A DNA stretch of 16,994 nucleotides from Octopus sinensis (taxonomy: Eukaryota), in contig NW_021825008.1 of assembly GCF_006345805.1 (NCBI RefSeq), positions 1 to 16,994 of the forward strand. The letters run 5' to 3'. The translations under genes and the position numbers were made by a program. The notes under the pieces are model-generated. The model made no database searches and was not told where the DNA came from. It was given only the letters and a program-made list of their open reading frames with translations. Shown piece after piece: positions 15,196-15,793 of the stretch; within the stretch, counting starts at the first letter, position 1, and the number at the start of each line of letters is the position of its first letter.

Positions 15196-15793
15196 CCGGC
15201 GAGCTGGCAGAAACGTTAGCGCGCCGGGCGAAATACTTAGCGGTATTTCGTCTGTCGTTACGTTCTGAGTTCAAATTCTGCCGAGGTCGACTTTGCCATT
15301 CATCCTTTCGGGGTCAATTAAATAAGTACCGGTTTCGCACTGGGGTCGATATAATCGACTTAATCCGTTTGTCCGTCCTTGTTTGACCCCTCTGTGTTTA
15401 GCCCCTTGTGGGTAGTAAAGAAATAGGTACTTCGTCTGTCTTTACGTTCTGAGTTCAAATTCCACCGAGGTCGACTTTGCCGTTCATCCTTCCGGGGTCG
15501 ATTAAATGAATACCAGTTACGCACTGGGCTCGATGTAATCGACTTAATCCGTTTGTCTGTCCTTGTTTGACCTCTCTGTGTTTAGCCCCTTGTGGGTAGT
15601 AAAGAAATAGGTACTTCGTCTGTCGTTAAGTTCTGAGTTCAAATTCCGCCGAGGTCGACTTTGCCGTTCATCCTTCCGGGGTCGATTAAATAAGTACCAG
15701 TTACGCACTGGGGTCGATGTAACCGACTTAATCCCTTTGTCTGTCCTTGTTTGTCCCCTCTATGTTTAGCCCCTTCTGGGCAGTAGAGAAATA
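15196..15793 (+). mobile_element. Trimeric tRNA-derived SINE (family B): head + 3 x 184-bp units
   Basis: The head at 15196-15241 holds the A-box-like TGGCAGAAACGTT. Units start at 15242, 15426 and 15610 (exact 184-bp period) and each ends GAAATA. No TSD was seen. Confidence 0.93.

What the first reader, a model, noticed from the sequence alone, without database searches (positions are those of the whole stretch)
15196..15793. Variable-copy multimeric SINE (head + n x 184 bp) with a fixed junction in the anticodon-like loop
Seen: two independent loci (n=2 at 5583-5997, n=3 here) share the 184-bp period and the junction ...GAAATA|GGTA(T/C)TTCG. The restart point lies at the 3' edge of the loop of the head hairpin CGAAATAC-TTAGCG-GTATTTCG (15231 region). 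The element's 3' end GAAATA mimics the 5' arm of that hairpin, so the dimer junction recreates GAAATA-GG-TATTTC. Only the first unit has an A box, every unit has a B box, and there is no TTTT until 15843, so Pol III could read the whole array. Inference: a SINE-satellite intermediate, made by microhomology-driven duplication, by RT template jumping from loop-cleaved RNA, or through a 184-nt circular RNA as in retrozymes but without a recognisable ribozyme.
Basis: partly seen in the sequence, partly recalled or inferred. Interest (0 to 1): 0.75.

Follow-up and report, generated by a model that had tools for sequence, protein, structure and literature searches.

The report
SINE stacks at its LINE's site
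This three-unit stack is one of tens of thousands of identical joints in a very common short jumping repeat; a long jumping gene with a similar tail sits at exactly the same base inside that repeat, so the stacks likely arise when copies land inside older copies and are then likely re-copied whole, not from a circular RNA.

Summary
In detail: head + 3 x 184 bp at 15196-15793 and head + 2 x 184 bp at 5997-5583. The joint has 27,296 exact matches in this 2.72-Gb genome (likely an octopus). The joint predicted by GAAATA microhomology occurs 2 times. In short arrays, neighbouring units differ at 47% of subfamily-diagnostic sites (background 7%), and 69 of 77 arrays begin with a head, so rolling-circle copying is not the main route. 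The restart base (q47) is an insertion site. SINE copies sit there inside older copies with 15-16 bp duplications (126 pattern matches; 2 at a control site). A young 5.3-kb L1/Tx1-type LINE with a similar tail is followed by q47 in 29 of 30 copies. Likely model: nested insertion makes composites; Pol III read-through and priming 16 nt after a tail hairpin copy them as n-mers; arrays of six or more units grow in DNA. Whether the nuclease alone or the RNA's read-through end picks the site is open. Similar architecture (blood clam) and self-insertion hotspots (Alu) are published. New variant of a known kind.

The parts
15196..15241 (+). SINE head q1-46 with A-box-like TGGCAGAAACGT (15205-15216); q14 (15209) is the family's second fixed joint position
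15225..15254 (+). Head hairpin; 15242 (q47) is the first base after the loop and is the landing site used by SINE copies and by the LINE elsewhere in the genome
15242..15425 (+). Unit 1 (q47-230), B-box-like 15269-15278, tail hairpin about 15401-15413, T218 tail type
15426..15609 (+). Unit 2, T218 tail type; shares three rare variants with unit 3 and one with unit 1
15610..15793 (+). Unit 3 (terminal), C218 tail type; its last 47 nt align with the 3' end of the LINE; no TSD follows
15843..15846 (+). First run of four T after the array, a possible Pol III stop (inferred)
5583..5997 (-). Second locus: head (C at q47) + 2 units, internal unit T218, terminal unit C218
5566..5582 (-). 3' copy of the 17-bp TSD of the dimer, starting right after GAAATA
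5998..6014 (-). 5' copy of the 17-bp TSD of the dimer

Best explanation
The fixed joint is an insertion site: SINE copies and a tail-sharing L1/Tx1-type LINE sit at base q47 inside resident SINE copies, and the multimers likely come from such nested insertions being read through and re-copied as units. Step 1 (shown): insertions end 16 nt after a tail hairpin loop, at GAAATA, and a TSD of about 15 bp follows at once; this fixes the left side of the joint. Step 2 (shown): targets follow a loose (G/A/T)(G/A)TA(T/A) word, and the SINE's own q47 fits it; this fixes the right side. Step 3 (inferred): the inserted copy's promoter would let Pol III read on into the resident half, as no TTTT intervenes, making head+unit+unit masters. 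Step 4 (inferred): reverse transcription can likely start at any tail of such an RNA, giving variable n. Step 5 (inferred from haplotypes): arrays of six or more units likely grow by local DNA duplication. The enzyme is likely that of this LINE or an older relative. The site is probably chosen by its endonuclease, with likely help from pairing of the RNA's read-through end.
For: Nested SINEs: the pattern q47-59 + new head has 126 matches against 2 for a control 13-mer that is twice as common as a target (50 vs 25 in 970 kb). The first 30 matches are 23 distinct loci; 13 of 23 have q47 again right after the inserted unit, and in L111, L114, L115, L137, L138 the outer copy is more diverged than the inner. 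LINE: found in L097; RVT_1, APE endonuclease and zf-CCHC hits, best PDB match human L1 ORF2, E 1e-35; its end aligns with tail A over 48 columns; 29 of 30 best-scoring copies are followed by q47; 12 of 12 fetched 5' ends carry SINE head q2-62; LINE 99.6% identical, flanking heads 89.9%, downstream halves 89.2%, so the SINEs are resident targets. Ruler: TSD starts at +16 in 33 of 60 tail-A and at +15/16 in 10 of 15 tail-B elements with a TSD; 1 of 216 shuffled pairs gives any TSD. Mixed units: 118 of 252 diagnostic sites differ between neighbours for n <= 3, background 400 of 5575; 13 of 161 for n >= 6. Multimers inside one TSD: 14 of 45.
Against: Only 1 clear case (L147; the script flagged 2) of 77 junction-selected arrays shows an in-place nested insertion, so most arrays must be re-copies of masters, a step that is inferred and not seen in RNA. 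The LINE is far more specific (29 of 30) than the SINE, most of whose insertions are at dispersed sites, and it is younger and only about 80% like tail A, so it may not be the actual mobiliser. 10 of 23 pattern loci are not complete nested insertions, and two of the 13 could be copies of a double-head lineage. The LINE sample is the 30 closest relatives of one copy among 536 candidates. The ruler could not be tested by TSD for tails C and D (3 of 40). A TSD was found in only 52 of 143 full elements. The focal trimer has no TSD.
Confidence: 0.8

Rival explanations
1. Variant on site choice, nuclease only: several LINE families with different nick preferences (GGTAT, AGAAA, AATAT, TATAT) each mobilise some SINE lineages; the RNA plays no guiding part.
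For: The LINE lands in both G47 and C47 residents, and the first base agrees between the 5' and 3' TSD in 11 of 11 SINE-embedded loci, so that base comes from the target. C47 share 13 of 29 vs 86 of 273 residents, p = 0.16; linkage of LINE variants with target class p = 0.087. Kojima 2015 states that target choice is mainly set by the endonuclease (PMC4494074, passages).
Against: Tails that differ by 1-3 nt have different next bases: T218 is followed by GGT in 24 of 42, C218 in 1 of 16 (p = 4e-4); AGA 2 of 42 vs 8 of 16. The LINE's own tail is C218-like yet lands at q47. Where the two TSD copies differ in the first bases, the 3' copy has the expected read-through base in 4 cases against 1 (weak).
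Confidence: 0.45
2. Reverse transcriptase jumps between SINE RNAs (from q47 of one, perhaps loop-cleaved, to the tail end of another) during one insertion.
For: Gives mixed units inside one TSD. Template switching is proposed for SINE module exchange (PMC4824008 section 9). Some terminal units look mosaic (L098 unit 10), so switching within homologous bodies may contribute.
Against: Tail B joined to q47 has 0 matches though 27 of 77 arrays end in tail B. 120 of 121 units followed by q47 are T218 in the junction set (set selected on T218, but the random sample agrees). A second joint lies at q14, outside the hairpin. It does not explain the 16-bp duplication around nested copies and LINEs.
Confidence: 0.1
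3. A 184-nt circular RNA is copied round and round (retrozyme-like).
For: Fixed period, n up to 10, near-clonal units in arrays with n >= 6.
Against: Neighbouring units of short arrays are as unlike as units of different loci (47% vs 42% of diagnostic sites). 69 of 77 arrays begin with a head and the 8 others start at scattered positions. Long arrays are mosaics of shared variants. No hammerhead core and no Rfam ribozyme.
Confidence: 0.04
4. One ancestral duplication, or GAAATA microhomology, made the joint once; everything else is DNA slippage or unequal exchange.
For: T218 is tied to the joint; long arrays do grow locally; unequal recombination is the route proposed for bivalve and reptile arrays (PMC11481361 passage; PMC10702118 Discussion).
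Against: The GAAATA-predicted joint has 2 matches. New joints form again and again in residents of different age and tail type. Short arrays are not duplicates.
Confidence: 0.06

Closest known systems
TSD1-(SINE)n-TSD1 arrays of the blood clam S. broughtonii (PMC11481361; section 15 and passages read, supplements searched for motifs)
   Same: First unit with full head, further units cut at the same head position, last unit with a complete tail, all inside one TSD.
   Different: There 64 elements in arrays of 4-15 units, put down to unequal recombination; here tens of thousands of joints, with nested insertion and a LINE at the joint seen directly.
SINEU-3 and Tx1-Mar of crocodilians; Tx1L in Tx1D (PMC4494074; passages read)
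   Same: A Tx1-type LINE and a SINE share a preferred site in another repeat; sequential insertions give tandems.
   Different: The target there is a DNA transposon and tandems sandwich a TSD. Here the target is the SINE itself and the composites are re-copied without the outer head.
Alu self-insertion hotspot at position 133 (PMC2836564; abstract and passages read)
   Same: A SINE inserts at one base of its own family, in sense orientation.
   Different: In the passages read, no variable-n family propagated from those nests and no LINE homing to that base.
SINE-derived satellites of squamates (PMC10702118; part 1 of 5, Discussion and passages read)
   Same: Tandem partial SINE units with a longer terminal unit; longer arrays are more uniform.
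   Different: Up to 1000 units, subtelomeric, no dimeric SINEs that transpose; origin put down to unequal recombination.
SART1Bm internal initiation (PMC7265360; passages read)
   Same: Reverse transcription can start inside the RNA, at a short word after a stem-loop that may pair with the target.
   Different: An autonomous telomere-specific R1-clade element; shown by experiment there, only inferred here.
B2 and Dip multimers of rodents (PMC8466645; passages read)
   Same: Abundant SINE multimers up to eight units; the authors leave insertion versus complex template open.
   Different: Full-length head-to-tail units, not head-less units at an internal joint.
Octopus OK, OR1, OR2 (Ohshima and Okada 1994; seen only in reference lists, family names partly recalled) and MetaSINE/MESC (PMC4824008 section 9; PMC4758252 passages)
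   Same: tRNA-type promoter, central domain and exchangeable tails in a mollusc. Likeness of q88-140 to the Meta domain is recalled, not tested.
   Different: Could not compare sequences; the element may already be in Repbase or Dfam, which were not on hand.
Metazoan non-LTR retrozymes (PMC11722881; passages read)
   Same: Tandem units of 170-400 nt.
   Different: They carry a type I hammerhead and circularise; none was found here.

Membership tests
SINE (SINEBase definition, PMC3531059 passages) | Short, interspersed, at least 100 copies | tested here: met
   158 elements in 970 kb, about 440,000 extrapolated; long arrays exceed 1 kb
SINE | At least 60% identity to a tRNA, 5S or 7SL | tested here: inconclusive
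   A- and B-box-like motifs present; ARAGORN 0, no Rfam tRNA hit; only one plausible tRNA in my loci to compare
SINE | TSDs of target-primed insertion | tested here: met
   52 of 143 full elements, 13-23 bp, mode 15; absent at the focal trimer
SINE | 3' tail shared with a LINE | tested here: met
   48-column alignment of tail A with the LINE end; partnership itself not shown
SINE | Pol III transcription | not testable with these tools
   needs RNA data or an assay
MetaSINE | 66-bp Meta domain after the tRNA region | not testable with these tools
   consensus is in a figure; motif searches of the supplements found nothing usable and file 1 was not searchable in two papers
Tx1/L1-type target-specific LINE (the partner candidate) | APE endonuclease plus RT, L1-like ORF2 | tested here: met
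Tx1/L1-type target-specific LINE | More than 20% of copies in one target (criterion in PMC4494074) | tested here: met
   29 of 30 closest copies at q47; biased to one young subfamily
Tx1 clade | RT phylogeny groups with Tx1 | not tested
   no tree built; the label Tx1 comes from earlier findings and recall
Retrozyme | Hammerhead ribozyme in each unit | tested here: not met
   no CTGANGA on either strand; no Rfam ribozyme at E <= 10
Retrozyme | Circular RNA | not testable with these tools
   needs RNase R and Northern work
SINE-derived satellite | Tandem partial units homogenised within a locus | tested here: inconclusive
   met for n >= 6 (13 of 161 sites differ), not met for n <= 3 such as this locus (118 of 252)

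The most novel reading that the evidence does not exclude
The bases that follow a master copy act as a heritable guide. The LINE enzyme measures 16 nt from the tail hairpin, pairs the next RNA bases with the nicked DNA, and so each new copy inherits, through its TSD, the target word of its parent (GGTA, AGAA, TATA or AATA lineages). Once a copy lands in its own family, the guide points at the family itself: a self-targeting ratchet that builds multimers, breeds landing sites for the LINE and seeds satellites.
Probability: 0.35. Interest if true: 0.75.

Novelty: new variant of a known kind. Interest (0 to 1): 0.5.

Why it matters
It gives a concrete route from dispersed SINE to tandem repeat with all stages present in one genome: nested insertion, transposing n-mers, locally grown arrays. 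Published SINE arrays in bivalves and reptiles are put down to unequal recombination, and this case offers a test for them (look for nested copies and a LINE at the joint). A SINE that carries both a LINE-like tail and that LINE's landing site is an unusual host-parasite loop. The fixed 16-nt start and the tail-linked target words make the share of nuclease versus RNA pairing in target choice directly testable. The specific instance in this window is one ordinary member of the family.

Tried and rejected
HDV-like fold from q47: a P1-like pairing (q47-53 with q129-135) was seen by eye, but the other elements as I recall them were absent; dropped. Rfam gave four weak hits (E 4-10), all far below gathering scores. 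First search for a partner among RTE, CR1-like and other LINE ends in my loci found no shared tail; I had printed the L097 tail without recognising it and returned to it only after the earlier findings. Whole-unit divergence within versus between arrays (10.2% vs 10.6%) has little power, since decay alone gives that; replaced by diagnostic sites. I first took the C at the LINE's 3' joint (13 of 30) as RNA-derived; the 5' TSDs show it is target-derived. Linkage of LINE variants with target class: p = 0.087 and 0.47, inconclusive. Literature searches for a description of this octopus multimer or of SINE self-targeting found none for this family; the library lacks most subscription papers, the 1994 octopus SINE paper and the 2015 genome paper were not read, and Repbase and Dfam were not available.

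Full report
Numbering. q counts from window base 15196, so the head is q1-46 and the unit q47-230. The genome has 2.72 Gb in 13,516 contigs; an octopus is my inference from the repeats and size, not a tool result.

1. Observation. The trimer (15242-15793) and the dimer (5949-5583, minus strand) have period 184 and the same joint. The dimer lies inside a perfect 17-bp TSD; the trimer has none. The joint has 27,296 exact matches, the reversed control 0. In 97 evenly spaced 10-kb stretches there are 158 family elements; 50 carry this tail (tail A), with n = 1 in 37, n = 2 in 10 and n = 4 in 3. Of 21 joints after tail A, 17 are exactly 230|47, 2 are within 2 nt, 1 is at q14 and 1 is irregular. Selected loci reach n = 10. 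The family has at least three other tails (B, C, D).

2. GAAATA microhomology predicts a restart at q39; that joint has 2 matches, and 95 of the first 100 exact heads read GAAATG (by eye). The joint hairpin is not significant. For a circle: among 77 arrays around the exact joints listed for the first 15.5 Mb of contig C1, 69 start with a head and 8 at scattered inner positions. Neighbouring units in arrays of n <= 3 differ at 118 of 252 diagnostic sites, against 7.2% at other sites and 42% between loci. No hammerhead core or Rfam ribozyme was found. For jumping from a cleaved loop: tail B ends 27 of the 77 arrays but is joined to q47 0 times, and a second fixed joint at q14 has 2,979 matches, 88 of the first 100 with the C218 tail type (by eye).

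3. Left side of the joint. Insertions stop at GAAATA and the TSD follows at once; in 37 of 52 cases not even the last base matches the target's upstream base. Counting from the loop of the tail hairpin, the TSD starts at +16 in 33 of 60 tail-A elements with a TSD (46 at +15 to +17; 140 examined) and at +15/16 in 10 of 15 tail-B elements (37 examined). Shuffled pairs give 1 TSD in 216. Tails C and D gave only 3 TSDs in 40. I read this as a fixed start of reverse transcription (inferred); internal starts after a stem-loop are reported for SART1Bm (PMC7265360, passages).

4. Right side of the joint. TSDs begin with a loose (G/A/T)(G/A)TA(T/A) word, which q47 fits. A new head directly after q47-59 has 126 matches; the same test at the B box gives 2, though that word is twice as common. 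The first 30 matches are 23 loci. 13 show q47 again right after the inserted unit; the other 10 are truncated, rearranged or repeated-head copies. In five the outer copy is more diverged than the inner one, for example L138, 80-83% against 94%. I reached this nested-insertion reading before consulting earlier findings.

5. A LINE at the same base. Earlier AI notes on this genome pointed to a Tx1-like LINE; I tested this. L097 holds an RT-coding element whose end aligns with tail A over 48 columns. Of its 30 best-scoring relatives (536 candidates), 29 are followed by q47. I fetched the 5' parts of 12 of the 30: all 12 are preceded by SINE head q2-62, and 11 are about 5.35 kb long. A 13th, truncated copy shows the same (L347). 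The LINE is 99.6% identical between loci, the heads 89.9% and the downstream halves 89.2%, so the SINEs are resident targets. It has APE, zinc-knuckle and RT domains and its best solved match is human L1 ORF2. No tree was built, so Tx1 is a label taken over, not tested. One copy (L356) has the head in front but non-SINE DNA behind and no TSD; unexplained.

6. From nests to n-mers. Only 1 clear case of the 77 arrays keeps an outer head fragment, and one of the random-sample arrays does (L291). Most multimers sit at unrelated sites, 14 of 45 inside one TSD. They are therefore best read as copies of composite masters, read through by Pol III because the unit holds no TTTT. This step is inferred. 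It fits the polarity seen: in the junction set 120 of 121 units followed by q47 are T218, and 18 of 27 terminal tail-A units are C218 (the set was selected on a T218 pattern). Both window loci follow it. Arrays of n >= 6 differ at 13 of 161 diagnostic sites and show mosaic shared variants, as local duplication would give.

7. What picks the site. For an RNA contribution: in the random sample T218 tails are followed by GGT in 24 of 42 and C218 tails in 1 of 16, with AGA reversed, 2 of 42 and 8 of 16; tail B is followed by AAT in 25 of 37; the LINE's tail is C218-like yet lands at q47; TSD mismatches favour the read-through base 4 to 1. Against it: the LINE uses both G47 and C47 residents, the first base agrees on both sides in 11 of 11 loci, and linkage of LINE variants with that base is not significant (p = 0.087). 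Several LINEs with different nucleases would also explain the tail-target links. I leave this near even.

8. Comparison. The same architecture is described in the blood clam (PMC11481361, section 15), a self-insertion hotspot in Alu (PMC2836564), a Tx1 LINE and SINE sharing a site in another repeat (PMC4494074), and SINE-derived satellites (PMC10702118). In what I read, none has a SINE that holds its tail-sharing LINE's landing site and spreads the nests as variable n-mers. Nine searches found no description of this family's multimers, but Repbase, Dfam and the 1994 octopus SINE paper were out of reach. It works like a target-primed SINE; it is not a retrozyme; MetaSINE membership is untested.

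9. Verdict. Real and genome-wide; the mechanism differs from the one proposed. New variant of a known kind, interest 0.5. Other windows of this scan have reported the same system; those notes are leads, not independent support.

Noticed in passing
L116-L124, L128, L195-L197: Arrays of the SINE head alone (q2-62 plus about 4 nt, period 65-66) in front of a full copy, up to six heads; probably derived from a nested insertion at q47.
   Followed up: partly
G000 genome-wide; L096, L097, L103, L164, L168, L187: Second fixed joint, tail A to q14 (period 217), 2,979 exact matches, mostly C218 tails; mixed with q47 joints in one array.
   Followed up: partly
L332, L339, L358 (3' of the LINE): The SINE halves after three LINE copies share a one-base deletion and a rare variant, and two share a head variant; some LINE-in-SINE composites may have moved as a unit.
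   Followed up: no
L356 / L372: Full LINE with SINE head q2-62 in front, followed by non-SINE DNA that matches the target at 12 of 17 bases; no TSD seen.
   Followed up: partly
window 14500-14600, minus strand: Decayed copy of the same family with a tail of type D (78% over q122-166).
   Followed up: no
L038:1096-3200 (minus strand), L043, L079: An RTE-like LINE has 64-bp tandem repeats in its 3' UTR and ends in (GAT)n; its 3' part is also a very common short repeat.
   Followed up: no
L007 / L008: A 765-bp tandem duplication that holds a whole head+A+A+partial array twice with identical units; recent duplication or assembly artefact.
   Followed up: no
window 1-16994: The rest of the contig is dominated by microsatellites; the 17 open frames of 120 aa or more look low-complexity or non-coding by eye.
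   Followed up: no
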